NCBI GenBank assembly: GCA_016783545.1
Contig: JADHWJ010000004.1
Location: 27,513-91,512 of the forward strand
Source of the DNA: Candidatus Aenigmatarchaeota archaeon
GTDB lineage: Archaea; Aenigmatarchaeota; Aenigmatarchaeia; QMZP01
Length of the DNA stretch: 64,000 bases
Reading direction: 5' to 3'
Notes under the pieces: generated by a model
Database searches by the model: none
The model's input: the letters and a program-made list of their open reading frames with translations, nothing else
Told to the model about the DNA's origin: nothing
Program-made: the position numbers and the translations under genes
Shown here: one piece after another, positions 14,822-26,189 of the stretch
Layout: each line of letters starts with the position of its first letter
Position numbering within the stretch: position 1 is the first letter of the stretch

Positions 14822-15430
14822 ATGAGAAAAGAGTTGCCAAGACAATTTATTCACCTGTCAGGGATTTTGTTCGTATTACTTGCACAATTCATAGGAAGTG
14901 TTGTATCAATATATTTTTTTATGATAAGTTTTATTCTAATTTTCTGGGCGTGGCATATAAAATCTACAATAGAAAATTCTGAAAACGTTATCTCTAGATT
15001 AGAACATGGGTTTAGAGACGCTGTTATGAAACTAGAGAGAAAAAATGTAAAAATACCATTCACAGGCGCAATATGGTTTTATATTGGATGTGGTATTGCA
15101 TTTTTTATATTCCCTTTACATATAGCATCAGCAGCATGCATAATCCTTTCAGTCGGTGATGCATTTTCAACAATAGTCGGAAAAAGATTTGGAAGGAAAA
15201 GAATATTCGGCGTGAAAACATTTGAAGGAAGCATTGCTTTCTTTATATCATCGCTTTTTGCAGCTCTATTATTTGTATCAATTGATATTGCAATAATTGG
15301 TTGCTTAACTGCCATGGTAACAGAGATGCTCCTTGGGCATGAAAAAATATTGAAAAATCCACGAACAAGATGGTTGAATGATAATTTACTGATACCTATT
15401 CTAGCAGCACTCGTCATGTTTTTAGTTTGA
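14822..15430 (+). CDS. polyprenol/dolichol kinase-like membrane protein (CTP-transferase_1 family)
   Basis: Polytopic protein with SVGDAFSTIVGKRFGRKRIFG-KTFEGSIAFF, as seen in the CdsA/dolichol kinase family. Confidence 0.45.
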   Translation: MRKELPRQFIHLSGILFVLLAQFIGSVVSIYFFMISFILIFWAWHIKSTIENSENVISRLEHGFRDAVMKLERKNVKIPFTGAIWFYIGCGIAFFIFPLHIASAACIILSVGDAFSTIVGKRFGRKRIFGVKTFEGSIAFFISSLFAALLFVSIDIAIIGCLTAMVTEMLLGHEKILKNPRTRWLNDNLLIPILAALVMFLV

Positions 15431-15985
15431 AGACTTTAGACGTATTATACCAAGATTCAATAGCTTTTTAATCGTGGACTCAAAATCATTGATATCTCCA
15501 AACTTCTTTCTCAAATCAGTGAATTTTATTTCATTTGCACATTCTTTTATGATTTCTGCTTCAGTACCTTCAAACCTGAAAGGAACAGACTCAATGGAAA
15601 CATAAACACCCCTTTTGTCATTTTCCCTAAATTCTGATACGCAATTACCAGAAAACATTACTATATGCTCTGGTTTTGGTGGCTCTGATTCAGGCATCCT
15701 AATCATGTATTCAAACCTTAGTAAATTAGGGACAAGTCTAAACATCTTCAATGGTCTCTCATCTATGGAAGAAGTTTTCCAGTTTGCATCAACTATATTA
15801 TATTTTCTCATTTCTTGTAGGCATCTAGAAGCGGTTGAAGGTGATATATTCACTTTCCTGGCAATTTCCGATGGCGGGGCAGGGCCTTCTTTGAGACATT
15901 CAATTATATTTTTAACAGTAAGATTTGATATTAAATGAAATGTTTTCAGGGCATCTTCACTTTTTTGGACAGTAACTCTCACCAT
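15422..15985 (-). CDS. winged-helix (ArsR/TrmB-like) transcriptional regulator
   Basis: N-terminal wHTH: NIIECLKEGPAPPSEIARKVNISPSTASRCLQEMRKYNIV. Divergent from the ATP-grasp cluster. Confidence 0.55.
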   Translation of the reverse strand: MVRVTVQKSEDALKTFHLISNLTVKNIIECLKEGPAPPSEIARKVNISPSTASRCLQEMRKYNIVDANWKTSSIDERPLKMFRLVPNLLRFEYMIRMPESEPPKPEHIVMFSGNCVSEFRENDKRGVYVSIESVPFRFEGTEAEIIKECANEIKFTDLRKKFGDINDFESTIKKLLNLGIIRLKSSN

Positions 15986-16095
15986 AACTTACCTTATAAT
16001 TCAGCGGCTGATATAATTGATTTGATTTAATATTTATAAGTATTGATTAATACATGCAACTAGTTTTATGAAATCAAATACCATTTCTATTTACT

Positions 16096-16107
16096 GGAAT
16101 ATATTCC
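16096..16107. promoter_or_regulatory. perfect 12-bp palindrome GGAATATATTCC in a divergent promoter region (candidate operator)
   Basis: Lies in the 222-bp gap between the wHTH regulator and the RimK-like gene. Related half-sites GGAAATATA (16116-16124) and GGAAATAGTA (16137-16146) follow it. Confidence 0.25.
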
Positions 16108-16207
16108 GTTTTCATGGAAATATAGCTTTTATAAGAGGAAATAGTAATCTCAAAAGGGAAACCCTTTTAAATATATACTCCATTCTTGCTTTATTGAGAG
16201 GCGTATT

Positions 16208-17125
16208 ATGTCTTTATGTATATTAGGTCACGAAAAAACAGAAACAAATCTTAGGCTCATGGAAGAAGCAAAAAAACATTTTGACAAGGTTTTTTATGTT
16301 CCTATCGATTCTATAGCCATAGGACTATCAGACAAATTCTCAATTTCGTATAGAACAACTGAACTATTAAAATTTGACGCTATACTACCAAGAATATCAA
16401 AAAAACTTAGTTCATATGGATATCAGCTTCTGTCACTTTTTCCAGAAGATAAATTCATGCCGATAAGGCCAATATCATTCTTACTTTCAACTGAAAGATT
16501 TTTCCTTCTTACAGTATTGAGAAAAAGAGGAATACCAACCATAAATCTGCATCTCACAAAGACACCAAAAGCAGCTAGTGCAGTACTTGAAAAATCAAAG
16601 TTTCCAGTTATACTAAGAACAGGTGAAAAAAAGACAGGAATTTTTGTTGAAAATAAACAAGAAGCAGTAAATGTGATAGATGCGCTTGGCACATTCAAGA
16701 AATCTATATTAATAGAAGAGGTTGTGAAAGACATGGTTTCTGTTTATGTCGCAGAGCCAGATATCATTGCAGCTGTTAAGAAGAAAACAAAACAAAAAGA
16801 CGTTCTCTTTGCAAAAGGGGATATTAAAAAAACCAAGTTAAGGGCAGAAGTAGAACAACTCGCACTCGATGCAGCAAAGGCTGTGGACACACAGATGGCG
16901 AGAATTGATATAAGCCTAAACGGTTCACCAAAAGTAATAGACATAAAACTCAACCCTGAATTGATAAAAGCATCAAAAGTTACTGGCGTTGACCTGCCAA
17001 AAAAAATCATAGAATCTGTTCATAATAATTACCAGGCTCATAAAGAAAAGCCAATGCTTGTAAAATTTTTTGAGGATGCAAAATCCGTTGTAAAAGATGT
17101 ATTAAAAAGCAAGCAGATGCTTTAA
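16208..17125 (+). CDS. RimK-like ATP-grasp protein (catalytic motifs appear degenerate)
   Basis: Collinear with RimK as I recall it (FDAILPRI..., GIPT, FPVILRTGEKKTGIFVENKQEAVNVIDAL, ARIDISL...VIDIKLNPE). Several ATP/Mg positions are substituted. Confidence 0.55.
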   Translation: MSLCILGHEKTETNLRLMEEAKKHFDKVFYVPIDSIAIGLSDKFSISYRTTELLKFDAILPRISKKLSSYGYQLLSLFPEDKFMPIRPISFLLSTERFFLLTVLRKRGIPTINLHLTKTPKAASAVLEKSKFPVILRTGEKKTGIFVENKQEAVNVIDALGTFKKSILIEEVVKDMVSVYVAEPDIIAAVKKKTKQKDVLFAKGDIKKTKLRAEVEQLALDAAKAVDTQMARIDISLNGSPKVIDIKLNPELIKASKVTGVDLPKKIIESVHNNYQAHKEKPMLVKFFEDAKSVVKDVLKSKQML

Positions 17126-17187
17126 ATACGTGCATGAGAAAGCTTATAAATACAACTTAGAGCTAATGTATAATACAAGATGGTTAT

Positions 17188-18021
17188 ATGAATATAAACA
17201 CAGTTCTGAGTAACATATGGATTTGGATAGCCACGTTTATGGAACAATTTATACCCAAATACATAATTCCTAATATCCAGCTTATAATACAAATAATTAT
17301 ACTCATTATTGTTGCCCTGATTGTCGGGAAAATAGGCAAAACAATAACCATAAAGTTACTGAACATAATAGGTCTCAAAAGAATAACAGGTAGAACCTGG
17401 GCTGAGAGCATGCTGAGAATCACAGGATACAGAGGAACTGTATTGGAGCTTATAGGAGACCTGATCAAATGGCTCATTTATATTCTCTTCCTTGCACTTA
17501 TGATACAGACTATAGGCTTCCCTGGAGTTGCTGAGATCTTCACCCAGGTGGCATCTGTTATGCCAAGAATTGTTGGGGCGATATTCATTGTTGTGATAGG
17601 GTTTATAATAGCAGATTTTTTCGGCAAAGTTTTCGAAGAAGCTGCAAGAAAGATCTTTAAAGAAGACCTTGCAGGAATATTCTCTGGAGCTCTTGCTAAA
17701 TACACTATCGGAATAATATCGATAATAATAGCTCTAAGTCTACTAGGATTAGACACAGTTAGCCTAAATATAATGTTTGCAATAATAATGGCAGTTGTTG
17801 TTGGCATACTTATTTTGGGATTGAAAGATACAATACCAAATTATTCATCAGGTATGCAGGTTAGGAGTTTAGTAAAAGTCGGAGATCATGTAAAAATAGG
17901 AGAATATTCAGGTATTGTTGAAAAGATAAACCCGACAGCAACTATACTAAGAAGCAATAAAAGATCAGTACTTATCCCAAATTCTTATTTCACAAAACTT
18001 CCTGTTGAAAAAATAAAGTGA
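17188..18021 (+). CDS. MscS-family mechanosensitive channel
   Basis: N-terminal TM helices followed by the beta-domain motif VKVGDHVKIGEYSGIVEKINPTATILRSNKRSVLIPNSYF. Confidence 0.6.
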   Translation: MNINTVLSNIWIWIATFMEQFIPKYIIPNIQLIIQIIILIIVALIVGKIGKTITIKLLNIIGLKRITGRTWAESMLRITGYRGTVLELIGDLIKWLIYILFLALMIQTIGFPGVAEIFTQVASVMPRIVGAIFIVVIGFIIADFFGKVFEEAARKIFKEDLAGIFSGALAKYTIGIISIIIALSLLGLDTVSLNIMFAIIMAVVVGILILGLKDTIPNYSSGMQVRSLVKVGDHVKIGEYSGIVEKINPTATILRSNKRSVLIPNSYFTKLPVEKIK

Positions 18022-18025
18022 TATC

Positions 18026-19054
18026 ATGTTGTTAGGTATAATAACAACAGAGGAGTTCATAAACGAGCCACACAACAAAGATATTATAAATTATGGCAAG
18101 AAAAAAAATGTTGATGTTTGTAGATTTCTTTCTAAAGACATAGACTGGGAAAATAAGATTGTTAATGGTTTTGATTCTAGTGGTAAGAGAAAGAAATTCA
18201 GATTCCCAGATGTTTTATACATACGAAACGGAAGGCCTCCAATAAGTATAGGTAAAAAGATAATGAAATCTTTTGTTGTCATGAATAGCCCTGATATGAT
18301 AGACATGGAACTCGATAAGTTAAGGACGTATGAGTTCATAAAGAAACAGGGAATTGGGAATAAAGGAAAGATTAGGCAACCAGAAACACTTCCATATACA
18401 AAAGAAAATACAAGAAAATTATTTGAGAAATATAAAACATTAATCTTCAAACCAATTCACGGTATGTGGGGGAGAGGTATAATCAGAGTCGAAAGGAATG
18501 CTTCTTATACACTACATTATGAAAAAACCGAATACGATATGAATGAAAAAGATCTTTTTGAAAAAATCAATGATATAATAAATAAATTAAATGATGAGTT
18601 TATTGTTCAGGAAGCTGTCAATGCAAAAGAATATGATGGTAGAGTTTTTGATATAAGATCATTCATGTTAAAGGATGGTAAAGGGGAGATAATTAAAGGA
18701 TTTACCATAATGAGAATTGGTGCAAAGAAAAAAGTAATATCCAATGTACATGGTGGCGGTGATGATGTTTTTGAATATAAGAAAATACTTGAACAGCTCT
18801 ACCCATCAAATCATGGGGAAATAATAAAAAATTTAGAGAGTGCTTTTTTCAAAGTAGCAAAAATAATGAACAAACTATCTGTAATGGGTGCTGATATAAT
18901 GCTTGATGTTGATGGGAATGCGTATCTCATAGAAGTAAATGGATGTGGCCCTGCTATTTACCTTTTTACCAATATACCAAAAAAAGTAAAGCAGAAATTG
19001 GCTGAACACATGGTTGATTATGCTATTCATTTGTATGGTCAGAAATATAACTAA
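18026..19054 (+). CDS. ATP-grasp ligase, YheC/YheD (TTL-like) type
   Basis: FKPIHGMWGRGI, FIVQEAV, FDIRSFMLKDGKGE, ISNVHGGGD and GADIMLDVDGNAYLIEVNGCGP, in canonical ATP-grasp order. Confidence 0.6.
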   Translation: MLLGIITTEEFINEPHNKDIINYGKKKNVDVCRFLSKDIDWENKIVNGFDSSGKRKKFRFPDVLYIRNGRPPISIGKKIMKSFVVMNSPDMIDMELDKLRTYEFIKKQGIGNKGKIRQPETLPYTKENTRKLFEKYKTLIFKPIHGMWGRGIIRVERNASYTLHYEKTEYDMNEKDLFEKINDIINKLNDEFIVQEAVNAKEYDGRVFDIRSFMLKDGKGEIIKGFTIMRIGAKKKVISNVHGGGDDVFEYKKILEQLYPSNHGEIIKNLESAFFKVAKIMNKLSVMGADIMLDVDGNAYLIEVNGCGPAIYLFTNIPKKVKQKLAEHMVDYAIHLYGQKYN

Positions 19055-19073
19055 TGCCAACTAATAATTACCC

Positions 19074-19949
19074 ATGAAAGTAAATGTAAAAAATCTTATT
19101 TATGTTGGCCTAGATTTCATATTTGAGAATGGAAACCCCTGGTTCATTGAAATGAACCCCCATGCTTATGGTGCATACAGCATAAAAACAATATCAGGTG
19201 AAGCAACACCACTTAAGAAACTTTCTAATTTTACAAAAAAATACAAGAATTTCTGCGCACTGGGTTGGGAGGAAGGTAAGAAAGAAAATACAAGATGGGC
19301 GGCAAATGAATTAAGGCATTACGGGACAAAAACTGAGTTATGCCTTGTCAAAGAGAATGTTAGGAGAAGAAAATATCTGAAAACGGTTGATGGTAAAGTT
19401 GTGGAGCCTGATTGTGTCTTCAAACATGGTCATATAGGTTTTCATCTTAGGGATTCAAAAGCAAAAATAATAAACCCGCATTATTTTTTCCATATCGCTG
19501 ATAAGTGGAATACCTATAAGATAATAGCCGATAAGGTTTTTAGGATGCCTAAGACATTTCTTGTAAAATCAAGAAAACAAGCAGATGATATAATCAGAAA
19601 AAATGGGGATGTATTCAAAAATGGATTTGTTATTAAACCAAGGAACAAATCCAAAGGTAGGGGATGCTTTGTTTTGGAAGTCGGTGACAAGATTCCGGCG
19701 ATAAGGGGCGAGAGAATACTCCAGCAGAGACTGATACCAGACCTTATCAAAGGAAAATATTATTGGGATGCGAGAGTTTTCGTTGTGAACGGAGAGATAG
19801 CAGGAAGTGAGATGAGAGTAACTGAAGATAAGATAACAAATGTGGCCCGTGGCGCGAAACCAACAATAGTTCCGAAAAAAATACTAGAAAAAGTATTAGG
19901 ACCATCTCTTAAAATAACAAAGGCACTTGACAGAGCAGAAAGGGAATAA
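19074..19949 (+). CDS. circularly permuted ATP-grasp ligase (paralog A)
   Basis: The N-terminus carries the normally C-terminal Mg-site strand VGLDFIFENGNPWFIEMNPHA. The protein then runs through IADKWNTYK, FVIKPRNKSKGRGCF, ILQQRLI, WDARVFVVNGE and ITNVARGA, and ends there. Confidence 0.55.
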   Translation: MKVNVKNLIYVGLDFIFENGNPWFIEMNPHAYGAYSIKTISGEATPLKKLSNFTKKYKNFCALGWEEGKKENTRWAANELRHYGTKTELCLVKENVRRRKYLKTVDGKVVEPDCVFKHGHIGFHLRDSKAKIINPHYFFHIADKWNTYKIIADKVFRMPKTFLVKSRKQADDIIRKNGDVFKNGFVIKPRNKSKGRGCFVLEVGDKIPAIRGERILQQRLIPDLIKGKYYWDARVFVVNGEIAGSEMRVTEDKITNVARGAKPTIVPKKILEKVLGPSLKITKALDRAERE

Positions 19950-19960
19950 ATTGATGACTT

Positions 19961-21034
19961 ATGTATCTAGGCGTATTAACCGAAAGAGAGGGCAAGGACA
20001 AATCTAATGATATAATTTTTTACTCCAGTAAATATTTTAAAGATATGGCAAGTATCTGCAAAGAAAAATGTATAGAGTTTTTTATTTTCTACAAGGATGA
20101 TGTTAATTGGAAGAAAAAAACAATTAAGGGATTTTTTCTAGAGAATGATGAATGGAAAAGAAAAAAAACAGTGTTTCCTGATGTTCTTTTTTTGTGGCCG
20201 GATATAGTTCATCCCACACGTCATAAAACAAAATATATGGAAATATCAAAAAAATTCAAAATACGTGTGAATTCATCGTCTGCGATAGAGGCCATGTGGG
20301 ATAAATTAGAAACATGTAATATTCTGAAAAGACATGGAATTGCAAGTGATGGTGCTATAAGACAGCCTGAGACCCTTTCTTATACAAAAGAAAATACAAG
20401 AAAACTTTTTAAAAAGCATAATTCGCTTTTCTTTAAGCCGAGATCTAGTACATGGGGATGGGGCATCTTTATGATTTCTAAAAATAGAGATGATTATACG
20501 ATAAACTATAAAGAAAATAAATGGAATGTTACGGCCAAGGAACTTTTCATTGAGATAGAAAAAATTATGAAAGATGCAAGTTATCTTGTACAAGAATCTG
20601 TAGATCTTGTAAAGTACAATGGAAGTGTTTTTGATGTAAGAACAGTTATACAAAAAAACAAAAAAGGTAAATGGGTTATTGCATTTATGGTAGTCAGAAA
20701 AGGTGTGAAAGGAAAGATTATATCAAATTTACATGGTGGTGGCAGAGATATAGCGGATATTGAAAAAGTGTTGAAAGAACTTTATGAAGACAGATATAAA
20801 AACATTCTTTCTAATATGAGGAAAGCTGCATTGAATTCAGCAAATGCATTTCCTAATGCTGGGATACTTGGTGTGGATATAATGACTGATGAGAAAGGAG
20901 CAGTCTATATAATAGAATTGAATGGAACACCAGGGATTTATGATTTTAGACATGTACCACTAAAACAAAAAAAAGATGTTTCAAGAAACATAGTTGAATA
21001 TGCGATCTATCTTCACAATAATAAAAATGTTTGA
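19961..21034 (+). CDS. ATP-grasp ligase, YheC/YheD (TTL-like) type, paralog of 18026-19054
   Basis: FKPRSSTWGWGI, YLVQESV, FDVRTVIQKNKKGKW, ISNLHGGGR and GVDIMTDEKGAVYIIELNGTPG. Shares IRQPETL.YTKENTRKLF with the paralog. Confidence 0.6.
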   Translation: MYLGVLTEREGKDKSNDIIFYSSKYFKDMASICKEKCIEFFIFYKDDVNWKKKTIKGFFLENDEWKRKKTVFPDVLFLWPDIVHPTRHKTKYMEISKKFKIRVNSSSAIEAMWDKLETCNILKRHGIASDGAIRQPETLSYTKENTRKLFKKHNSLFFKPRSSTWGWGIFMISKNRDDYTINYKENKWNVTAKELFIEIEKIMKDASYLVQESVDLVKYNGSVFDVRTVIQKNKKGKWVIAFMVVRKGVKGKIISNLHGGGRDIADIEKVLKELYEDRYKNILSNMRKAALNSANAFPNAGILGVDIMTDEKGAVYIIELNGTPGIYDFRHVPLKQKKDVSRNIVEYAIYLHNNKNV

Positions 21035-21093
21035 CAAAGTAGAAAAAATCATAGCATAAAACCATTTATTTAATCTCAAAACAATAATATTAT

Positions 21094-21984
21094 ATGAGCT
21101 TTGATTATAAAAACACCTACCTTCTCTTCGATTCAGGGAAACCAGGACCAATGTTTGTGGTACCGCATTCGGGCGTGGCTTTTCATAAACCAGGTGATTT
21201 CCAAGATGATGGCACGCATTTCATAGGTCAGAGGCTTGCGAATAGTAAAGGAAAGGCAATAATATCAATGATAACAAGGGAAAGGGATATTGGCCTAGAT
21301 TTCTACAGACTACCTCCGACAAAAAAACTCGCTCTGGAATATTATATTCATTTCAAGAACAATAGAAAGGATTTGACAAGGGATTTTAGGAGAAGATATT
21401 CTTGGGTTGCTGCTAACAGAAAAGAACATCGTAAAAAAGAAAAAATCTATAAAAATTTTTGGAAGGTTGTGCAGAATGCAAATAGTCCAACATATTTTAT
21501 ACATAGACAATTCTTTAATCCTATAAGGCATCCGAGCTTAATTGATGTTGTACCGTTCACATGTAATAGAAAAGTGCAATCCGCTGTCAGGAAAGTTAAT
21601 AAAAAATATGAAAAAATATTCAACTTCATACTACCTTTCTACAAGAAAGCATTTTTCTATAAGAGCAACTGCATACTTTTCAAAGATAAATTGGAAAATA
21701 ACTCTGGTATAGATCTATTCAGAAGTTCAGAACCAAGAATAATATGGAGAATGAATAGGTTCAGGGAGGCAATAAAGACTGATCCGTATATAAAGATTAC
21801 ATATAAAAAAAACTTCAAGGGGAAAAATACAAAGGGACTTGTTGAACACATATTACCAGAAAGGAATTATCCAATAATACAATTTGAGATATCAGAGTTC
21901 CTTACAAGAAGATTACCTGATCTGGCTGTACATCTGATAAAAGACATTATTAACGAAACAGAATGTTATGAAAAAAGAAAATAA
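21094..21984 (+). CDS. N-formylglutamate amidohydrolase (FGase)-like putative metallo-amidohydrolase, paralog 1
   Basis: FVVPHSGVAF...DDGTHFIG...ITRERDIGLDFYR resembles the FGase pattern PHxG...D.gt...R...D.NR. Shares YKNFWK and PSL.D.V.F with 22818-23741. Confidence 0.4.
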   Translation: MSFDYKNTYLLFDSGKPGPMFVVPHSGVAFHKPGDFQDDGTHFIGQRLANSKGKAIISMITRERDIGLDFYRLPPTKKLALEYYIHFKNNRKDLTRDFRRRYSWVAANRKEHRKKEKIYKNFWKVVQNANSPTYFIHRQFFNPIRHPSLIDVVPFTCNRKVQSAVRKVNKKYEKIFNFILPFYKKAFFYKSNCILFKDKLENNSGIDLFRSSEPRIIWRMNRFREAIKTDPYIKITYKKNFKGKNTKGLVEHILPERNYPIIQFEISEFLTRRLPDLAVHLIKDIINETECYEKRK

Positions 21985-22768
21985 TATGGGAGATCTAGTT
22001 AATTTCTTTAATCTTATTTCTAAAGGCATACTATGTGGTCTTGGCGCTGGTGGAGAATATAAGAAAAGGCCGATTGCTGTGAAAGCATTATTACATCCAG
22101 AAAAAGGCTATAAACATCTTATGGGAGAACTTATAGAATCTCTTAAAGAAGAAGATATAGCTGATGGTGATATTGTAATCTTTCCAGCAAAAATATTTGC
22201 AATAGCTCAGAAAAGACTTCTTCCAAGTGAATTTCTGGAAAAATATGGAAAGCCATCAAGACTTTTGAACAAAGAACTTGATATTCTGATTGGTGATGTG
22301 AAAAAAGAATTTAATATTGAAGTTGATAGACTTGATATACATGCTTCAGATAAAACGTATGTGAAAGAAGGATATAGTTCACTGCTTCCTAAAAATCCAA
22401 ATAAAATATCAGGTGATATCTCAAAATTGATTTTAAATAAATTTAAAAAGAACATAGATGTTGTTATAACAGATACACTGAATGTAAATGCAGTGACACA
22501 TTCTTTGCTTTCTGGGTTCCCTTCTTTAATTGCTATTCCAATAGGCGCCACAAATGGTTTGGTTCCGCATGATTTAATAAGAACATCAATTGCCGCAGAG
22601 ATTACAAGAAATAAAGAAAGAAATACTCCAATAGTTATTCTAAAAGCAGAAGAAGGCTTTGCTAGAGACGGCCCGAATATAGGAAAGTTTAGATACAACG
22701 GAAGAATTGATATGAAAAAGGAAGATGTTCCGGGATTTCTTAGAAATGTATGGAAAGATATTCAGTGA
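21968..22768 (+). CDS. CofE-like (F420-0:gamma-glutamyl ligase family-like) amide ligase
   Basis: DGDIVIFPAKIFAIAQKR and IDVVITDTLNV...AIPIGATNG resemble CofE motifs (GD.vv..sK..s.aeGr and vvitDT.gR...G..AiG). An alternative ATG at 21986 avoids the 17-nt overlap with the previous gene. Confidence 0.4.
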   Translation: MKKENNMGDLVNFFNLISKGILCGLGAGGEYKKRPIAVKALLHPEKGYKHLMGELIESLKEEDIADGDIVIFPAKIFAIAQKRLLPSEFLEKYGKPSRLLNKELDILIGDVKKEFNIEVDRLDIHASDKTYVKEGYSSLLPKNPNKISGDISKLILNKFKKNIDVVITDTLNVNAVTHSLLSGFPSLIAIPIGATNGLVPHDLIRTSIAAEITRNKERNTPIVILKAEEGFARDGPNIGKFRYNGRIDMKKEDVPGFLRNVWKDIQ

Positions 22769-22817
22769 ATAAATAATAAGTAAGAGCAAATGTAATTATA
22801 TTGTACATGGTGTTGAA

Positions 22818-23741
22818 ATGAAAGTTGAAATTAAAAATGGCTATATACATTTGAAAAACAAAGACGATCCTGTATATATAGTACTTCACACAGGACCCAA
22901 TTATAGCCTGCCAACAATAAGGGATACTAATTCAGATACTGTTGCAAGCCTTTGCTGGAAAAAGACAGGCGGAAGATTATTACTCTCTACAATGGCAAGA
23001 AATCCGTTGATAGGTGTTGATTTGAATAGGGAGGTACCTGATAAAAAAACCGCAATCAAAGAATGGAAAAACGCAGTAAATGAAAATGTTGTTGATTTCA
23101 AGAAGGTCTATGGGATGGTTGCGAAGAATGAAAAGGATTATGAAAAAAGAATAATGCTGTATAAGAATTTCTGGAAAATAGCAAAATCAACAGGAAAGCA
23201 TTTTATACTTTTGCATACACAGGATTTGAGAATAGGCAACTATCCAAGTCTTTTTGATATAGTAACTTTCGATGGAATAGGTATTAAGAAAGAAAGAACA
23301 ATGGAAATAATAAAAAAATTAAATAAAAAGTTCAGGAGAGAATTTTCCAATCTGGAAAATAATTTTAAAACGCGTTTGCTGGCATCTGCTAATTCAATAG
23401 AAACTGATAAAATGCTGAATAACACTGATGCATATGCGGAGTGGTTTGAAAGAGATACAGGTGTTATAAGAAAATATGGTGATAAAAATATTGTTAAGAG
23501 ATTGGAGAATAGCATAACAAAAGAGAATTTCATCAGGGCTGTTGAAAATGTTTTGAAAAAAGACATACCCCTGAAAATAACACTGGAACAGAATTTCTGG
23601 GGAGCAAAAGCATTTGCCCCTAAAAAGGAGCTCATAGGTAAAAACAGAAAAGTTGTTGAGATAGAAGTCAATGGATTCTTGAATAATTCATATCCAGAAC
23701 TGGTTGCAGACGTATTGGTTGAATTCGTTAAGATGCTATAA
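22818..23741 (+). CDS. FGase-like putative metallo-amidohydrolase, paralog 2
   Basis: YIVLHTGPNY...DTNSDTVA...ARNPLIGVDLNRE. Also YKNFWKIAK, FILLHTQ and PSLFDIVTF. Confidence 0.4.
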   Translation: MKVEIKNGYIHLKNKDDPVYIVLHTGPNYSLPTIRDTNSDTVASLCWKKTGGRLLLSTMARNPLIGVDLNREVPDKKTAIKEWKNAVNENVVDFKKVYGMVAKNEKDYEKRIMLYKNFWKIAKSTGKHFILLHTQDLRIGNYPSLFDIVTFDGIGIKKERTMEIIKKLNKKFRREFSNLENNFKTRLLASANSIETDKMLNNTDAYAEWFERDTGVIRKYGDKNIVKRLENSITKENFIRAVENVLKKDIPLKITLEQNFWGAKAFAPKKELIGKNRKVVEIEVNGFLNNSYPELVADVLVEFVKML

Positions 23742-23767
23742 TTTGGTTAATTCTAGAAGATAATTGT

Positions 23768-24655
23768 TTATAACATTTCACTAAAGTTCTCTATTACTTT
23801 TACGCATTTCTCTGCTCTTTTCTTGATTTTGTTTTCAATCTCTCCTGGAACTTCTTTAACAACACCACCAAGGCTTATGTTTGTCACAGGACTTTCAGAA
23901 ACCCTTAGCATAGAACCTATATATTTTCCGCCGACAACAAATGCCCTAAGGTCCCAATAATCGCCTTTCATTTTCTTTATGTTGACAATTTTTTGCAGAA
24001 GATATGGCTTCTTTATTTCAATGTTATCTATCTTGCTAATATCTTTGACTATGCGAATGCCACTGCCCTTTTCTCCAGTAGTTGGTTTAAGAACGAAACC
24101 CTTCTTGAACATCCTCTCATTTTCTTTCAGAGCCCTTTCCACATTACTCATATTCTTTACAAGAAAACTTGTGGGTGATCTTATGAATGCATTCCTTATC
24201 GCAAGGTAGCTTAGCCATTTATTTCTTGTAACCCTTATGACTTCGGGTGAGTTAATTTCAATTACATTCTCTGGGTTGTATTTGAACAAGGGTTTTCTTC
24301 TTAATAATGAATCAGCTTTTATTATGTTACCATCAATATCAACAAGTTTCGCCGAGTTTCTTTTGATTGATTTTTCATTCTCTTTGATGAGACAAATATG
24401 TACATCAAGTTTCTTTAGCCCATTTTTAATAAGGTTTATTGAAGTTTCGGTTTTCAGATAACGTTTTGGTGTTAGAAGTACAATATTTTCACATTTCCTT
24501 TTCTTTAGATATTTTTCAAGTGTTTTCACTGGTTTGATATTCTTGTATAATTCATGCCATATGAATATACCAGGAAATGAGTTGGCCTCTAAAAAGTATG
24601 GCCTCATTTCTTTATCGAATATAAAATCCAATCCAGCAAAGCTAAATTTATTCAT
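23768..24655 (-). CDS. circularly permuted ATP-grasp ligase (paralog B)
   Basis: N-terminal AGLDFIFDKEMRPYFLEANSFPG. It continues with TRNKWLSY, FVLKPTTGEKGSGI, YLLQKIV, WDLRAFVVGGK and VTNISLGG, and ends without a C-terminal Mg-site strand. Confidence 0.55.
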   Translation of the reverse strand: MNKFSFAGLDFIFDKEMRPYFLEANSFPGIFIWHELYKNIKPVKTLEKYLKKRKCENIVLLTPKRYLKTETSINLIKNGLKKLDVHICLIKENEKSIKRNSAKLVDIDGNIIKADSLLRRKPLFKYNPENVIEINSPEVIRVTRNKWLSYLAIRNAFIRSPTSFLVKNMSNVERALKENERMFKKGFVLKPTTGEKGSGIRIVKDISKIDNIEIKKPYLLQKIVNIKKMKGDYWDLRAFVVGGKYIGSMLRVSESPVTNISLGGVVKEVPGEIENKIKKRAEKCVKVIENFSEML

Positions 24656-24665
24656 GAATATTAAC

Positions 24666-26078
24666 CTATGTAAACTTTAGGTTTAGTTTCTCATAAACCT
24701 TTTCTGTAAGTTCTGAAGCCCATTTGTTCAATTTACCTGTTTTTGGATCTCTCATGGACCTCAGTGTTATAAGTCTCATTATTCTTTGGTGTGTGTTAAA
24801 AACAGCGCCTCTGTAAGGGACGCCATCACATATCAAAACATCGTCAGTATTTTTCAGTGACCGCATGTGATATGCATATCTTTTGAACACAAGCTCACCG
24901 TTCTTGAAACTATAAACACCAGGCTCAACATCACCCCAGACTTTCACAGGATCATTGAATTTATTTGTAATCAGTAAATGTGCCCCGGGTTTGTGTTTCT
25001 TTGATAATCTGTTCACTCTTTCATAATCAAGTTGGTAGTCTTCTCCGAGAAATTCAAGTATATGCAAAGCAAGGAATGGTATCTCACCATTTATTGACTG
25101 TATCATTGTTATTGTTGGAAATGAGCCAAGCATCCTGAAGTTACATTCTATTGGATATATGTTTTTCTTTTTCTGGTCCATTAACATATCTATGCCAAAT
25201 ATGCCCCTATAACCCCTTTCCCGCATATATTCTCCTATTTTATGTGCGTAATTATAAGCCTGTTCCCTTATGTTCTTTGGAAATCTTGCTGATTCCCAAT
25301 CATGACCTGCGAATACACCACTGCCTATATCTGAGTTTAAAACTTCAGGTATGTCTAAGAGCTGGTATTGGAGATTGGTATATAGTGTTCCATGCTTTGT
25401 TACGCAGCATGTTAGTGATGGTGAAGGGCCTTTCACAAACTTTGAAACAACAGCTCTTCCATCCCCATATCTTTCTTTTACAACCTCTTTCATTTTTTTA
25501 AAATCATCATCAGAATTTATAAAAAACGTGCCCTTGCCACCACTTGTACCAGGTACTTGGACAACAAAATTTCCAAATAATTTTTTCATTGATGTGTATT
25601 TCATTTTTGAAAAGAATTTTACTTTCCAAGGTATTGGCTTTAGTTTCAGTTCTTCAAGTATTTCCCTGAAGCCGATTTTGCCCATCTTAACATCCATTTC
25701 ATAAAGATTATTTCCCACAATATTTGTCCAACCCATTTTATCTGTTACCTTTATAACAGATTTTGTATATTTGTATAAGAGAAGATGTGGATTTCCAAGT
25801 TTGTTTATATAATTCTTAGTTGTCTTTGCTTTCAGTATGTTTGCAGTGTTTCTTTTCCTTTTCAATAAATTACTGCCCTCTTTTTTGCTTATGCAGAGAA
25901 CTTTTGCGTTTTTCCTAATAAGAATATTATCTTTACTGTTTCTGAGGCATATTATCTTATAATTTGGCAAGAAATCTTCTGATCCCACTCTATTAAACGC
26001 AGTAACACCTATACCAACAACGTCTTTGTTTATCTGCTTGAATCTTTTCTTTATGTCATCAAAGTTCTGTATAATCAT
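24666..26078 (-). CDS. large ATP-grasp ligase (470 aa) with N-terminal pre-ATP-grasp region
   Basis: FVVQVPGTSGGKGTFFI, AVVSKFVKG, GIFGIDMLMDQKKKNIYPIECNFR. Confidence 0.55.
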   Translation of the reverse strand: MIIQNFDDIKKRFKQINKDVVGIGVTAFNRVGSEDFLPNYKIICLRNSKDNILIRKNAKVLCISKKEGSNLLKRKRNTANILKAKTTKNYINKLGNPHLLLYKYTKSVIKVTDKMGWTNIVGNNLYEMDVKMGKIGFREILEELKLKPIPWKVKFFSKMKYTSMKKLFGNFVVQVPGTSGGKGTFFINSDDDFKKMKEVVKERYGDGRAVVSKFVKGPSPSLTCCVTKHGTLYTNLQYQLLDIPEVLNSDIGSGVFAGHDWESARFPKNIREQAYNYAHKIGEYMRERGYRGIFGIDMLMDQKKKNIYPIECNFRMLGSFPTITMIQSINGEIPFLALHILEFLGEDYQLDYERVNRLSKKHKPGAHLLITNKFNDPVKVWGDVEPGVYSFKNGELVFKRYAYHMRSLKNTDDVLICDGVPYRGAVFNTHQRIMRLITLRSMRDPKTGKLNKWASELTEKVYEKLNLKFT

Positions 26079-26141
26079 CTAACACCTTAATTTTTAAGAT
26101 ATTAATATTATAGTTAAACCAATAAAAAATAGAGGTGTATT

Positions 26142-26189
26142 ATGGGCTGTGGCTGCTGTGAAACTGATAAAAAGAAAAAGAAAAAATAA
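26142..26189 (+). CDS. candidate micro-ORF MGCGCCETDKKKKKK (15 aa)
   Basis: ATG at 26142 is preceded by GAGGTG (26132-26137) with a 4-nt spacer. It is divergent from the ATP-grasp gene start (26078) and stops 1 nt before the htpX stop. Too short to appear in the ORF track. Confidence 0.3.
   Translation: MGCGCCETDKKKKKK

What the first reader, a model, noticed from the sequence alone, without database searches (positions are those of the whole stretch)
15422..26189. Cluster of six ATP-grasp ligases, a CofE-like ligase and two FGase-like amidohydrolases: candidate undescribed peptide or poly-amino-acid ligation and trimming system
About 10 kb of an otherwise housekeeping-dominated, apparently streamlined archaeal genome is devoted to amide-bond enzymology. 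The genes are: a RimK-like ATP-grasp (16208-17125), two YheC/D (TTL-like) ATP-grasps (18026-19054, 19961-21034), two circularly permuted ATP-grasps (19074-19949, 23768-24655), a 470-aa ATP-grasp (24666-26078), a CofE-like gamma-glutamyl-ligase-family protein (21968-22768) and two paralogous FGase-like putative metallo-amidohydrolases flanking it (21094-21984, 22818-23741). The plus-strand genes from 17188 to 23741 are nearly contiguous, with gaps of 4-60 nt and one overlap, which suggests an operon. A divergent wHTH regulator, an MscS-like channel and a Cys-rich micro-ORF sit at the borders. RimK, TTL and CofE families are all known to add amino acids, typically Glu, stepwise to protein C-termini or cofactors. 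Zinc amidohydrolases or carboxypeptidases reverse such tails. By analogy this could be a writer/eraser system for a peptide tag, or an assembly line for a short non-ribosomal peptide or decorated metabolite. I know of no described archaeal system with this combination. A RimK-associated-type retropepsin-like gene lies separately at 35913-36281.
Basis: partly seen in the sequence, partly recalled or inferred. Interest (0 to 1): 0.85.

Follow-up and report, generated by a model that had tools for sequence, protein, structure and literature searches.

The report
Archaeal amide-ligase and hydrolase cluster with channel
A small symbiotic archaeon (Aenigmatarchaeota) carries a real gene cluster of peptide-bond-forming and peptide-bond-cutting enzymes; it is built around a conserved pair, an apparently inactive RimK-like protein plus a pressure-release (MscS-type) channel, and it looks like an unstudied, expanded relative of the bacterial RimK/RimB polyglutamate system.

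Summary
All ORFs lie at the stated coordinates in a Ca. Aenigmarchaeota contig. Profiles confirm two YheC/D ATP-grasps, two circularly permuted ATP-grasps, an amino-acid-ligase-like 470-aa ATP-grasp, a divergent CofE-family protein and an MscS-like channel.

Corrections:
- **RimK:** 16208-17125 belongs to a degenerate RimK paralog lacking the ATP Lys, the DxR Arg, N..GG and the Mg Glu in 29/29 orthologs, so it is probably not a ligase.
- **FGase-like proteins:** they match no Pfam/NCBIfam model. They form a rare DPANN family (92 representatives in 1.84 billion). Only a confident AlphaFold model and collinear motifs link them to the FGase/M14 fold.
- **Micro-ORF:** probably spurious.

Across 36 related loci, the degenerate RimK is followed directly by the MscS gene in 31 of 32 assessable cases. 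A canonical RimK, a RimB-type retropepsin, a permuted ATP-grasp, FG hydrolases and a GNAT join variably. YheC/D and the CofE-like gene recur only in one or two close relatives; the 470-aa ATP-grasp was found nowhere else. The retropepsin at 35913-36281 (minus strand) was ancestrally in the operon.

Best reading (inferred, about 0.4): cytoplasmic synthesis and trimming of glutamate-type peptides coupled to a solute-release channel. This is a new variant of the RimK/RimB theme. Product and substrate are unknown.

The parts
15422..15985 (-). Divergently transcribed winged-helix regulator
   Evidence: It hits HTH_24 at 4.6e-8, plus ArsR/IclR/MarR-type HTH models. Orthologs at 52-56% identity occupy the same divergent position upstream of RimKb in L019, L021 and L025. 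A 13-nt inverted repeat lies in the shared intergenic region at 16020-16079.
16208..17125 (+). RimKb: a catalytically degenerate RimK paralog with a conserved C-terminal helix (KPMLVKFFEDAKSVVKDVL)
   Evidence: It hits PF08443 at 63.6 bits and Rimk_N at 31 bits, but scores 73.9 against the TIGR00768 cutoff of 143.4. Compared with canonical RimKa of L013 and L002, it has the ATP Lys changed to Arg, the DxR Arg changed to Ser, the Asn of N..GG changed to Val/Ile, the Mg Glu changed to Asn (Asp in this window) and a shortened Gly loop. These changes hold in 29/29 orthologs (28/29 for Glu to Asn). Orthologs are 49-67% identical across 35 metagenome loci.
17188..18021 (+). Short MscS-like channel lacking the cytoplasmic alpha/beta domain
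   Evidence: It hits MS_channel_2nd at 3e-8 and MS_channel_1st_1 at 8e-7. It aligns to E. coli MscS residues 26-168 and ends there. It lies directly downstream of RimKb in 31 of 32 assessable loci.
18026..19054 (+). YheC/D-type ATP-grasp ligase 1
   Evidence: It hits PF14398 at 1.5e-42 and 146 bits. The motifs K..G.G, D.R, N..GGG, D and E.N can be read directly in the sequence. The L007 ortholog is 48% identical.
19074..19949 (+). Circularly permuted ATP-grasp ligase CP1
   Evidence: The RimK model matches only residues 142-263, corresponding to model positions 2-122 of 188. The N-terminus carries GLDF..FIEMN. Rotating the sequence extends the ATP-grasp_3 match from positions 1-68 to 1-156 of 160. 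CP1 is 29% identical to CP2 and 36% identical to the CP gene of L013.
19961..21034 (+). YheC/D-type ATP-grasp ligase 2
   Evidence: It hits PF14398 at 8e-48 and 163 bits. It is 37% identical to YheCD1.
21094..21984 (+). FG1: FGase/M14-fold putative amidohydrolase (a DPANN-specific family with no Pfam model)
   Evidence: It is 24% identical to FG2 (E 4e-26). It has no Pfam or NCBIfam hit. Orthologs are 75% identical in L007 and 49% in L015, and both are followed by the CofE-like gene.
21968..22768 (+). Divergent CofE-family (F420_ligase superfamily) protein
   Evidence: It hits PF01996 at 6.4e-9 and 36.1 bits against a cutoff of 25, covering residues 54-171. It scores 22.5 against the TIGR01916 cutoff of 180.65. 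Only one homolog was found in 5.8 billion proteins, plus the L015 copy at 48% identity.
22818..23741 (+). FG2: FGase/M14-fold putative amidohydrolase
   Evidence: The AlphaFold model has pLDDT 96 and pTM 0.93. The best structural match is 2odf (probability 0.99, TM 0.49/0.59), followed by M14 carboxypeptidases and succinylglutamate desuccinylase. R71, H133, D147 and E283 are invariant in all 55 family members; H24, G26 and D68 are invariant in the closer five-sequence set.
23768..24655 (-). Circularly permuted ATP-grasp ligase CP2
   Evidence: The family of about 20 clusters has invariant D10, E23, N25, K190, R237, N259 and G263. The AlphaFold model has pLDDT 90. Foldseek gives E of 1e-11 to 1e-7 to 3k1t, GspS, YjfC/YgiC, ArgX/LysX and RimK.
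24666..26078 (-). 470-aa ATP-grasp of the L-amino-acid-ligase / PRK06524 type
   Evidence: It hits NF005096 at 2.2e-36, LdmS at 3.7e-6 and BesA at 0.035. Its PDB sequence hits are 7r8p at 2e-3 and 8yi6. The motif GID...IECN is present. No ortholog was found in any other locus examined.
35913..36281 (-). RimB-type retropepsin-like aspartic peptidase, a displaced former member of the operon
   Evidence: It hits PF05618 at 1.1e-10 and 42 bits against a cutoff of 27, and weakly hits the RloA2/RloA3/RimB models. It has a DSG motif and no signal peptide. Orthologs head the operon in L013, L037-L042 and L047, next to the same Hef-like helicase that neighbours it here at 36350-37867.

Best explanation
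**What it is.** This is a lineage-specific Aenigmatarchaeota operon for cytoplasmic, ribosome-independent formation and hydrolysis of amide bonds. It derives from a RimK/RimB-type module.

**Shown here:**
- The invariant core is a catalytically degenerate RimK paralog (RimKb) followed by a short MscS-type channel.
- Relatives add a canonical RimK glutamate ligase, a RimB-type retropepsin, a circularly permuted ATP-grasp, one or two FGase-fold hydrolases and often a GNAT.
- In this genome the retropepsin has been moved about 10 kb away, and no canonical RimK lies in the window.
- The module has been expanded with two YheC/D ligases, a second permuted ligase, an amino-acid-ligase-type ATP-grasp and a CofE-family protein wedged between two FG hydrolases.

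**Inferred:**
- The ligases build free, glutamate-type (acidic) oligo- or polypeptides or N-acyl peptides from the cytoplasmic amino-acid pool.
- The retropepsin (endo-acting) and the FG hydrolases (exo-acting or deacylating) break them down again.
- The MscS-like channel vents small solutes.
- RimKb acts as a non-catalytic sensor or partner of the channel or of the active ligases.
- The net effect would be control of the free glutamate/osmolyte pool and of turgor, with polymerisation lowering osmotic activity and hydrolysis raising it.
For: **Family assignments and residues**
- Family assignments and intact catalytic residues hold for five ATP-grasp proteins.
- RimKb is degenerate in 29/29 orthologs yet remains 49-67% conserved.

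**Gene order**
- MscS lies directly downstream of RimKb in 31/32 loci.
- Canonical RimKa lies directly upstream in 10/19 loci, and the retropepsin in 6/15.
- An FG or CP gene follows MscS in 12/22 loci, and a GNAT in 6/15.
- L013 has one tight operon: RetroP, RimKa, RimKb, MscS, CP, FG, FG, GNAT.
- L002/L003 link an FG gene to a fused double retropepsin and two RimK genes.
- A canonical FGase (PF05013, 9.5e-30) sits inside the cluster in L037.

**Structure and localisation**
- The FG2 model best matches FGase- and M14-type exopeptidase folds.
- None of the enzymes has an N-terminal signal peptide (read).

**Published precedent**
- RimK makes poly-alpha-L-glutamate, and RimB cleaves polyglutamate and stimulates that synthesis (PMC11957791).
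- The related Rlo retropepsin / ATP-grasp / membrane-protein operon is needed for tolerance of hypo-osmotic stress, and a glutamate/polyglutamate homeostasis role has been proposed for it (PMC12239564).
Against: - No product, substrate or activity is known for any protein here.
- Glutamate specificity is extrapolated from the RimK, CofE and FGase families and was not tested.
- Seven different ligases are more than a homopolymer needs, which suggests a defined heteropeptide.
- YheC/D, the CofE-like gene and AG470 are confined to this genome and one or two close relatives, so the expanded part may do something different from the core.
- FG-family genes occur alone in Woesearchaeota/Nanoarchaeia, with no ligase nearby. 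The permuted ATP-grasp also occurs alone in other archaea.
- The link from MscS to osmoregulation rests on gene order only.
- Many relatives have only RimKa-RimKb-MscS or RimKb-MscS, with no hydrolase nearby.
Confidence: 0.4

Rival explanations
1. **Protein-tag writer/eraser.** The ligases would add glutamate or other residues stepwise to the C-terminus or side chains of one or more proteins. The retropepsin and FG hydrolases would remove them, as RimK/RimB do on RpsF and as TTLL/CCP enzymes do on tubulin. RimKb would act as a substrate adaptor.
For: - RimK, TTL and YheC/D homology is present.
- RimB precedent exists for removing glutamate tails from a protein (PMC11957791, PMC7343187).
- The FG fold resembles M14 carboxypeptidases. 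From general knowledge, that family includes the tubulin deglutamylases.
- A FlaJ/PilC-like membrane protein lies 2 kb upstream (13020-13874). It ends in ...SPEE here and in SP-x-E in five syntenic orthologs.
Against: - From general knowledge, ribosomal protein bS6 is bacterial, so the known RimK target is absent.
- The only RimK homolog in the window is catalytically degenerate.
- No small substrate gene is conserved inside the cluster, and the micro-ORF is probably spurious.
- The characterised members of the FGase and CofE families act on small molecules.
- The conserved MscS partner has no obvious role in a protein-tagging cycle.
Confidence: 0.25
2. **Assembly line for one defined small molecule.** The product could be a short heteropeptide, an N-acylated acidic dipeptide-type compatible solute, a peptide-amine conjugate, or a gamma/alpha-glutamyl tail on a cofactor-like carboxylate. 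Each ligase would add one specific unit. The FG enzymes would act as maturation or recycling deacylases, and MscS as the release valve.
For: - There are seven different ligase-type proteins of four kinds: YheC/D, permuted, amino-acid-ligase-type and CofE-family.
- The paralog pairs are old, at 24-37% identity, which suggests distinct specificities.
- AG470 resembles the dipeptide ligases LdmS and BesA.
- The permuted ligases structurally resemble glutathionylspermidine synthetase and YgiC/YjfC.
- A GNAT is present in relatives. Known acidic peptide solutes and metabolites are made by GNAT/ATP-grasp or RimK-like enzymes; examples recalled from general knowledge are NAGGN and NAAG.
- From general knowledge, CofE and the RimK-family enzyme CofF jointly build the F420 tail.
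Against: - No other cofactor or secondary-metabolite genes lie in the window.
- The CofE-like protein scores far below the CofE equivalog cutoffs.
- Ligase content differs even between 71%-identical relatives: L007 has a different 310-aa ATP-grasp and no CP gene in the interval its contig covers. That is unusual for a fixed pathway.
- The core module in most relatives has at most one or two active ligases.
Confidence: 0.25
3. **No common pathway.** The cluster would be an accretion of paralogous ATP-grasp and hydrolase genes kept together by recent ancestry, and the RimKb-MscS adjacency would be mere conserved synteny.
For: - The full gene set is seen only in this genome, and partly in one 71%-identical relative.
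- FG and CP genes also occur alone elsewhere.
- Upstream synteny (T2SSF genes, TM202, wHTH) is also conserved, which shows that gene order is fairly stable in this lineage.
Against: - RimKb-MscS adjacency holds in 31/32 loci across 49-67% identity, while the flanking genes vary.
- The same enzyme types (RimK, retropepsin, FG, CP, GNAT, canonical FGase) are recruited repeatedly next to this pair in different combinations.
- The genes are tightly spaced or overlapping and co-oriented.
Confidence: 0.08

Closest known systems
RimK-RimB (RimABK) system of Pseudomonas (PMC11957791, PMC7343187, PMC4741518)
   Same: - It is a RimK-family ATP-grasp gene cluster with a cytoplasmic RimB-type retropepsin. 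That pairing is in the operon in relatives L013, L037-L042 and L047, and the retropepsin lies 10 kb away here.
- It shares the writer/eraser logic for glutamate-type amide bonds.
- The retropepsin has the DSG motif and no signal peptide.
   Different: - It is archaeal, so the known target bS6 is absent.
- The conserved RimK homolog here is catalytically degenerate, and no canonical RimK lies in this window.
- The invariant partner is an MscS-like channel, with no RimA or cyclic-di-GMP component.
- It has extra ligases (YheC/D, permuted, amino-acid-ligase-type, CofE-family) and FGase-fold hydrolases.
RloABC operon of Pseudomonas aeruginosa (PMC12239564)
   Same: - It combines a retropepsin, an ATP-grasp and a membrane protein in one operon.
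- It has a genetic link to hypo-osmotic stress tolerance.
- A glutamate/polyglutamate homeostasis role has been proposed for it.
   Different: - RloA is secreted, whereas the peptidase here has no signal peptide.
- The membrane partner there is a 7-TM inactive transglutaminase, not an MscS-like channel.
- It has no FGase-fold hydrolases and no CofE-like protein.
ATP-grasp amidoligase / peptidase gene neighbourhoods predicted by Iyer, Abhiman, Burroughs and Aravind 2009 (Mol Biosyst 5:1636; recalled from memory, paper not held in the library)
   Same: It shares the general theme of operons that combine RimK-like, YheC/D-like and circularly permuted ATP-grasp amidoligases with peptidases or amidohydrolases for peptide-like metabolites or protein modification.
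   Different: I could not check the paper. To my knowledge, none of the following is described there: the RimKb-MscS core, the DPANN FG family, the CofE-like insertion, or this archaeal lineage.
F420 tail biosynthesis: CofE (gamma-glutamyl ligase) plus CofF (RimK-family alpha-glutamate ligase)
   Same: A CofE-family protein and RimK-family proteins occur together.
   Different: - The CofE-like protein scores 22.5 bits against the 180.65 cutoff of the CofE equivalog.
- No other F420 genes lie in the window.
- The RimK homolog is degenerate.
N-formylglutamate amidohydrolase (PF05013) and M14 carboxypeptidases / succinylglutamate desuccinylase
   Same: - The predicted fold of FG2 matches these best.
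- Collinear motifs are present: PH.G, R....D.N(R/K), E..R...Y..F/W, h-h-H-T/S, I/L-E-h-N.
- A true PF05013 gene sits in the homologous cluster of L037.
   Different: - There is no profile-level similarity.
- FG proteins carry an ~90-residue helical insertion (about residues 158-246).
- The metal ligands have not been verified.

Membership tests
RimK family (PF08443 / TIGR00768), for 16208-17125 | ATP-grasp domain with an N-terminal Rimk_N pre-ATP-grasp domain detectable by profile | tested here: met
   It scores 63.6 bits on PF08443 (cutoff 21) and 31.1 bits on PF18030 (cutoff 26.4).
RimK family (PF08443 / TIGR00768), for 16208-17125 | Reaches the curated NCBIfam subfamily or equivalog score | tested here: not met
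   It scores 73.9 against 143.4 on TIGR00768 and 63.2 against 331 on NF007764.
RimK family (PF08443 / TIGR00768), for 16208-17125 | Catalytic and nucleotide-binding residues: ATP Lys with Gly-rich loop, DxR Arg, N..GG, and the Mg-binding D/E/N | tested here: not met
   The changes are Lys to Arg, Arg to Ser, Asn to Val/Ile, Glu to Asn/Asp, and a shortened loop, in 28-29 of 29 orthologs. Only the Mg Asp is kept.
RimK-RimB system | RimK gene adjacent to a RimB-type retropepsin gene | tested here: inconclusive
   In this window the retropepsin lies about 10 kb from the cluster on the other strand. In relatives L013, L040-L042 and L047 it directly precedes a canonical RimK in the same operon; in L037/L038 it lies about 1.2 kb upstream with other ORFs between.
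RimK-RimB system | Retropepsin fold with a catalytic D-S/T-G and cytoplasmic location | tested here: met
   It scores 42.1 bits on PF05618 (cutoff 27). The sequence reads LMDSGA, and no N-terminal hydrophobic signal is visible. NCBIfam RimB/RloA scores are below their cutoffs.
RimK-RimB system | Substrate is ribosomal protein bS6 (RpsF) and/or free glutamate polymerised to poly-alpha-Glu | not testable with these tools
   From general knowledge, bS6 is absent from archaea. No activity data exist.
YheC/D ATP-grasp (PF14398), for 18026-19054 and 19961-21034 | Full-length profile match above the gathering score, with intact ATP-grasp motifs | tested here: met
   They score 146 and 163 bits against a cutoff of 26.8, covering model positions 9/10-255 of 255. 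The motifs FKP..G.G, FD[IV]R, SN.HGGG, [AV]DIM and IE[VL]N can be read.
Circularly permuted ATP-grasp (Pfam CP_ATPgrasp_1 PF04174 / CP_ATPgrasp_2 PF14403), for 19074-19949 and 23768-24655 | Profile match to PF04174 or PF14403 | tested here: not met
   Neither model appears, even at E = 10. The best hits are the RimK, YheCD, TTL and ATPgrasp_ST models.
Circularly permuted ATP-grasp (Pfam CP_ATPgrasp_1 PF04174 / CP_ATPgrasp_2 PF14403), for 19074-19949 and 23768-24655 | Permuted topology, with the Mg-binding C-terminal hairpin placed at the N-terminus and all catalytic residues kept | tested here: met
   - Residues 5-32 match model positions about 250-274 of the Ddl and rimK_rel models.
- Rotating the sequence extends the Pfam alignments to the ends of the models.
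- D10, E23, N25, K190, R237, N259 and G263 are invariant in 20 family members.
- The AlphaFold model (pLDDT 90) starts with a beta-hairpin and ends with the long helix that normally precedes it.
- Foldseek gives E of 1e-11 to 1e-7 to ATP-grasp amidoligases.
CofE / F420-0:gamma-glutamyl ligase (PF01996; TIGR01916), for 21968-22768 | Pfam family-level match | tested here: met
   It scores 36.1 bits against a cutoff of 25, but only residues 54-171 align to profile positions 16-150 of 218.
CofE / F420-0:gamma-glutamyl ligase (PF01996; TIGR01916), for 21968-22768 | Equivalog-level score and an F420 biosynthesis context | tested here: not met
   It scores 22.5 against 180.65 on TIGR01916. It has no PDB sequence hit. 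No other F420 genes were seen among the window ORFs scanned.
N-formylglutamate amidohydrolase (PF05013), for 21094-21984 and 22818-23741 | Profile match to PF05013 | tested here: not met
   - There is no hit at E = 10 for either protein.
- None of the 55 family members hits PF05013.
- hhalign and hmmsearch against a genuine FGase (L037) are not significant.
N-formylglutamate amidohydrolase (PF05013), for 21094-21984 and 22818-23741 | FGase / Zn-exopeptidase-like fold with conserved His/Asp/His/Glu active-site residues | tested here: inconclusive
   - The model has pLDDT 96.
- No Foldseek hit reaches E <= 1e-3. The best by probability and TM-score is 2odf (0.99; 0.49/0.59). I recall 2odf as a PF05013 member but did not verify this here. 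M14 carboxypeptidases and 3cdx follow.
- R71, H133, D147 and E283 are invariant across all 55 family members. H24 and D68 are invariant only in the five closest sequences. H24, D68, H133 and E283 are collinear with the motifs of the L037 FGase.
- Active-site geometry was not inspected.
MscS family, for 17188-18021 | Pore-lining TM3 helix plus beta domain | tested here: met
   It scores 34.1 bits on PF00924 (cutoff 20.2) and 29.3 bits on PF05552 (cutoff 22). It aligns to E. coli MscS residues 26-168.
MscS family, for 17188-18021 | C-terminal alpha/beta cytoplasmic vestibule domain | tested here: not met
   The protein ends about 10 residues after the beta domain. Orthologs are 279-291 aa long.

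The most novel reading that the evidence does not exclude
The catalytically dead RimK paralog would be a cytoplasmic regulatory subunit of the truncated MscS-like channel, standing in for the missing alpha/beta vestibule. It would sense glutamate, oligoglutamate or nucleotide. Together with the neighbouring ligases and hydrolases it would form an 'osmotic capacitor'. The cell would polymerise its main anionic osmolyte when turgor is too high and depolymerise it when turgor is too low, and channel gating would be coupled to the state of that pool. This would be a previously unknown osmoregulation mechanism in ultra-small symbiotic archaea, and a new class of pseudoenzyme-gated mechanosensitive channel.
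Probability: 0.15. Interest if true: 0.85.

Novelty: new variant of a known kind. Interest (0 to 1): 0.62.

Why it matters
**Extension to archaea.** RimK-type glutamate ligases and their retropepsin partners have only recently been understood in Pseudomonas, and I found no description of them in archaea. This cluster shows that a DPANN lineage with a very small genome keeps, and in this genome greatly expands, such a module. It spends about 10 kb on it.

**Testable new elements:**
- A conserved pseudo-RimK is paired with a truncated MscS channel in 31/32 loci.
- A rare, confidently foldable hydrolase family has no Pfam model.
- A small family of permuted ATP-grasp ligases keeps all catalytic residues.
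- A very rare CofE-family protein has only two known relatives.

**What activity data would give.** It would identify a new archaeal peptide-like metabolite or polymer, or a new protein modification. It could also link amide-ligase chemistry to turgor control. The L013-type operon of seven or eight genes is small enough to reconstitute in vitro.

Tried and rejected
**Tests that came out negative or uninformative**
- Pfam and NCBIfam scans of FG1 and FG2 at E = 10, and of all 55 family members, gave no FGase hit and no other family.
- PDB sequence searches with FG profiles gave only chance hits.
- hhalign and hmmsearch of the FG profile against a genuine FGase from L037 were not significant.
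- Foldseek E-value ranking for FG2 is headed by alpha/beta-hydrolases with TM about 0.24 and rmsd about 16 A. I rejected these as spurious in favour of the higher-TM 2odf and M14 hits.

**Cys-rich micro-ORF as a precursor or substrate: rejected as probably spurious**
- Its poly-Lys codons are the complement of the oligo-T tract after the minus-strand M48 gene.
- It overlaps the AG470 5' region.
- No orthologous region exists for testing.

**LysW/LysX-type amino-group carrier system: rejected**
- No LysW-like small protein lies in the intergenic regions.
- LysX scores are far below cutoff.

**Other ideas set aside**
- **Riboswitch or RNA element in the cluster:** there was no Rfam hit.
- **M48 peptidase, AAA_18 kinase and DUF362 downstream as cluster members:** they are not conserved next to the module in any relative.
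- **Horizontal-transfer island:** GC content is uniform at 0.32-0.34 across the cluster and its flanks.

**Resources that failed**
- The Iyer et al. 2009 paper could not be retrieved.
- Homolog searches for the CofE-like protein returned only one relative, so its structure was not predicted.

Full report
**Source and observation.** The window comes from a Candidatus Aenigmarchaeota MAG. FG2 and CP2 are identical to NCBI proteins ISS36_02025 and ISS36_02030 on a 97-kb contig. GC content is uniform at 0.32-0.34 across the cluster and its flanks.
- The plus-strand genes from 16208 to 23741 are separated by 62, 4, 19, 11 and 59 nt, then a 17-nt overlap, then 49 nt.
- CP2 and AG470 converge on them from the minus strand.
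- tblastn with RimK and ATP-grasp proteins from related loci hits the window only between 16.2 and 24.3 kb.

**Family assignments.**
- 18026-19054 and 19961-21034 are clear YheC/D ATP-grasps (146 and 163 bits; 37% identical to each other).
- 24666-26078(-) matches the NCBIfam PRK06524 'biotin carboxylase-like' model over 410 residues (E 2e-36, below cutoff). It weakly matches the dipeptide ligases LdmS and BesA, also at PDB sequence level (7r8p, 8yi6). I treat it as an L-amino-acid-ligase-type ATP-grasp.
- 21968-22768 passes the Pfam gathering score for F420_ligase (36 bits against 25) over about half its length. It scores far below the CofE equivalog cutoffs and has no PDB sequence hit. Only one homolog was found in 5.8 billion proteins, and a third copy lies in L015.
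- 17188-18021 is an MscS homolog. It aligns to E. coli MscS residues 26-168 and ends there, so it lacks the cytoplasmic alpha/beta domain.
- 15422-15985(-) is a winged-helix regulator.
- The downstream M48 peptidase, AAA_18 kinase and DUF362 genes are not associated with the module in any relative.

**The 'RimK' is a degenerate paralog.**
- Related loci encode two RimK-type genes side by side. One (RimKa) has every ATP-grasp motif and scores 141 bits on PF08443. The other (RimKb) scores 44-64 bits.
- The window gene 16208-17125 is the RimKb ortholog. It is 59% identical to RimKb of L013 and 29% identical to RimKa.
- Aligned to the RimKa proteins, all 29 full-length RimKb orthologs have Arg in place of the ATP-binding Lys and Ser in place of the DxR Arg. 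They have Val/Ile/Leu/Tyr in place of the Asn of N..GG, and a shortened glycine loop. Asn replaces the Mg-binding Glu in 28 of 29 (Asp in this window). Only the Mg-binding Asp is kept.
- All orthologs carry a conserved C-terminal helix (KPMLVKFFEDAKSVVKDVL) that RimKa lacks.
- RimKb is nevertheless the best-conserved protein of the module, at 49-67% identity over 35 metagenome loci. This is the signature of a conserved non-catalytic role, which is my inference.
- No canonical RimK lies in the 64-kb window. The rest of the MAG could not be checked.

**The permuted ATP-grasps are real.** In 19074-19949 and 23768-24655 the RimK-type models match only the C-terminal half of the protein, and only the first two-thirds of the model. 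The N-terminal ~30 residues match the last conserved block of the Ddl and RimK-related models.
- Moving the first ~50 residues to the C-terminus extends the Pfam alignments almost to the ends of the models. ATP-grasp_3 goes from positions 2-72 to 2-155 of 160, and RimK from 1-143 to 1-169 of 188.
- The family has about 20 clusters at 90% identity, all 275-318 aa long.
- In that family the Mg triad D10/E23/N25 at the N-terminus is invariant, together with K190, R237, N259 and G263.
- The AlphaFold model of CP2 (pLDDT 90) starts with a beta-hairpin and ends with a long helix.
- Foldseek finds 3k1t, glutathionylspermidine synthetase and YjfC/YgiC first, then ArgX, LysX and RimK (E of 1e-11 to 1e-7).
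- Neither protein hits Pfam CP_ATPgrasp_1/2.
- Members of this family also occur alone in other archaeal genomes, in two cases next to a TrmB-type regulator.

**The 'FGase-like' pair.**
- FG1 and FG2 are paralogs (24% identity, E 4e-26).
- They have no Pfam or NCBIfam hit at E = 10.
- An exhaustive HMMER search of 1.84 billion representatives found only 92 relatives. None of the 55 scanned hits FGase or any Pfam family shared across the set (each chance hit at E >= 0.006 was confined to one member).
- All eight GTDB loci that encode the family are DPANN-type genomes. One is labelled Methanosarcinales but is syntenic with a Woesearchaeota locus.
- The AlphaFold model of FG2 is very confident (pLDDT 96, pTM 0.93).
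- Foldseek gives no hit at E <= 1e-3. The best match by probability and TM-score is 2odf (0.99; 0.49/0.59). I recall 2odf as a PF05013 structure but could not verify this. M14 carboxypeptidases and a succinylglutamate desuccinylase follow.
- The family's conserved residues are R71, H133, D147 and E283, which are invariant in all 55 members. H24, G26 and D68 are invariant only in the closer five-sequence set. R61 and G66 are nearly invariant. They fall in five blocks collinear with the motifs of a genuine FGase found inside the homologous cluster of L037 (PF05013, 9.5e-30).
- Profile comparison with that FGase is not significant.
- I therefore call these FGase/M14-fold putative amidohydrolases of a new family with an ~90-residue helical insert. 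They are not members of PF05013.

**Comparative genomics.** I used the FG family as a probe in GTDB genomes and RimKb as a probe in metagenome contigs, then mapped all cluster proteins onto the loci with tblastn.
- MscS lies directly downstream of RimKb in 31 of 32 assessable loci.
- RimKa lies directly upstream in 10 of 19 loci.
- The retropepsin lies upstream in 6 of 15 loci.
- An FG or CP gene follows MscS in 12 of 22 loci.
- An FG gene lies within 4 kb in 9 of 15 loci, and a GNAT in 6 of 15.
- L013 (Aenigmatarchaeota AUK155) has a tight operon: retropepsin, RimKa, RimKb, MscS, CP, FG, FG, GNAT.
- L002/L003 link an FG gene to a fused double retropepsin and to RimKa plus RimKb.
- L007 is 71-75% identical to the window proteins. 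Its order is MscS, a different 310-aa ATP-grasp, YheCD1, FG1, CofE-like, FG2.
- L015 has FG1 followed by the CofE-like gene.
- YheC/D recurs only in L007, the CofE-like gene only in L007 and L015, and AG470 has no counterpart in any locus examined.
- In Woesearchaeota and Nanoarchaeia the FG gene stands alone.
- Several Aenigmatarchaeota relatives have only RimKa-RimKb-MscS or RimKb-MscS.
- These loci are not phylogenetically independent, so the counts describe recurrence and are not statistics.

**The retropepsin belongs to the system.** The ORF at 35913-36281 is on the minus strand. It passes the PF05618 gathering score and has a DSG motif. It weakly matches the RloA and RimB models.
- Here it is the divergent neighbour of a Hef-like helicase (36350-37867).
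- In L013 and L037 the same helicase is the divergent neighbour of the retropepsin that heads the operon.
- The simplest reading is that a rearrangement separated the retropepsin from the rest of the operon in this lineage. This is my inference.

**Most likely mechanism.**
- *Shown:* the region is a conserved, co-oriented set of genes. It encodes five ATP-grasp proteins with intact catalytic motifs, a CofE-family protein, two FGase-fold proteins and a RimB-type peptidase, all without signal peptides. They are organised around a pseudo-RimK and an MscS-like channel.
- *From the literature:* RimK polymerises glutamate and extends RpsF. RimB cleaves polyglutamate and stimulates RimK (PMC11957791, PMC7343187). 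The related Rlo operon combines a retropepsin, an ATP-grasp and a membrane protein. It is needed under hypo-osmotic stress, and its authors discuss glutamate/polyglutamate homeostasis (PMC12239564).
- *Inferred:* the archaeal module makes and degrades free glutamate-type peptides in the cytoplasm. This activity is tied to solute release through the channel, with RimKb as a non-catalytic partner.
- I put this at about 0.4. A protein-tagging cycle and a defined small-molecule pathway are at about 0.25 each. Nothing here identifies the product.

**Possible substrate leads.**
- The micro-ORF MGCGCCETDKKKKKK (26143-26189) is probably not a gene.
- A FlaJ/PilC-like membrane protein lies 2 kb upstream and ends in ...SPEE. 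Its syntenic orthologs all end in SP-x-E. This is a weak lead for a C-terminal acceptor.

**Comparison and novelty.** It works like RimK/RimB, and possibly like Rlo, but it is not a member of that system as defined. The RimK homolog fails the catalytic-residue and score tests, bS6 is absent, and the partner set is different. ATP-grasp/peptidase neighbourhoods are a known theme (Iyer et al. 2009, cited from memory because the paper was not retrievable). Literature searches found no description of a RimK-MscS pairing, of ATP-grasp clusters in Aenigmarchaeota, or of FGase-ATP-grasp clusters. I rate it a new variant of a known kind, with several new components.

**Limits.**
- There is no activity, expression or interaction data.
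- Glutamate specificity is extrapolated.
- The FGase link is at fold level only, and the CofE link is a partial profile match.
- The rest of the genome was not examined.
- The structure of the CofE-like protein was not predicted because too few homologs were available.

Noticed in passing
window 13020-13874 (+): A FlaJ/PilC-like (T2SSF) membrane protein ends in ...SSSPEE. It is the only one of 85 window ORFs ending in EE. Its orthologs in L019, L021, L022, L027 and L049 all end in SP-x-E and lie in the same synteny block upstream of RimKb-MscS. It could be a C-terminal acceptor for a RimK-type ligase, or this could be mere synteny.
   Followed up: partly
window 26143-26189 (+): The micro-ORF MGCGCCETDKKKKKK has a GAGGTG motif 5 nt upstream. 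Its Lys codons are the complement of the oligo-T tract that follows the stop of the minus-strand M48 gene, and it overlaps the upstream region of AG470. No orthologous region was available. It is probably not a gene.
   Followed up: partly
window 16020-16032 / 16067-16079: A 13-nt inverted repeat (ATTTGATTTAATA / TATGAAATCAAAT, 92% complementary, 34 nt apart) lies in the divergent intergenic region between the wHTH regulator and RimKb. It is a candidate operator, but the region is AT-rich so it may be chance.
   Followed up: no
L037 7557-8333 (-): A canonical N-formylglutamate amidohydrolase (PF05013, E 9.5e-30; it hits PDB 2q7s) sits between the permuted ATP-grasp and an FG-family gene in a related Aenigmatarchaeota cluster. 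FGase-type chemistry has therefore been recruited to this module at least twice.
   Followed up: partly
L020 2309-3472 (+): In one relative an M29 aminopeptidase-like gene follows MscS directly, in place of the FG hydrolases.
   Followed up: no
window 14822-15430 (+): A 202-aa multi-pass membrane protein with no Pfam hit is conserved directly upstream of the wHTH/RimKb genes in seven relatives (L019, L021, L022, L025, L026, L028, L049). By eye it resembles the CDP-alcohol / dolichol-kinase type motif GD..S..VG..FG. Whether it belongs to the module is unknown.
   Followed up: no
L016 and L017 (10001-10888): Members of the permuted ATP-grasp family occur as single genes directly after a TrmB-family regulator gene. 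These lie in long (357-842 kb) archaeal contigs that also encode giant (over 3000 aa) surface proteins.
   Followed up: no
window 17126-17187: The 62-nt spacer between RimKb and MscS contains a TATA-like TTATAAATA about 35 nt upstream of the MscS start. The channel gene may therefore also have its own promoter.
   Followed up: no
P0080 (2416 aa) and P0086 (5745 aa): Two giant proteins match the N-terminal ~55 residues of the FG-family profile 9 and 18 times. This may be a repeated module or a low-complexity artefact.
   Followed up: no
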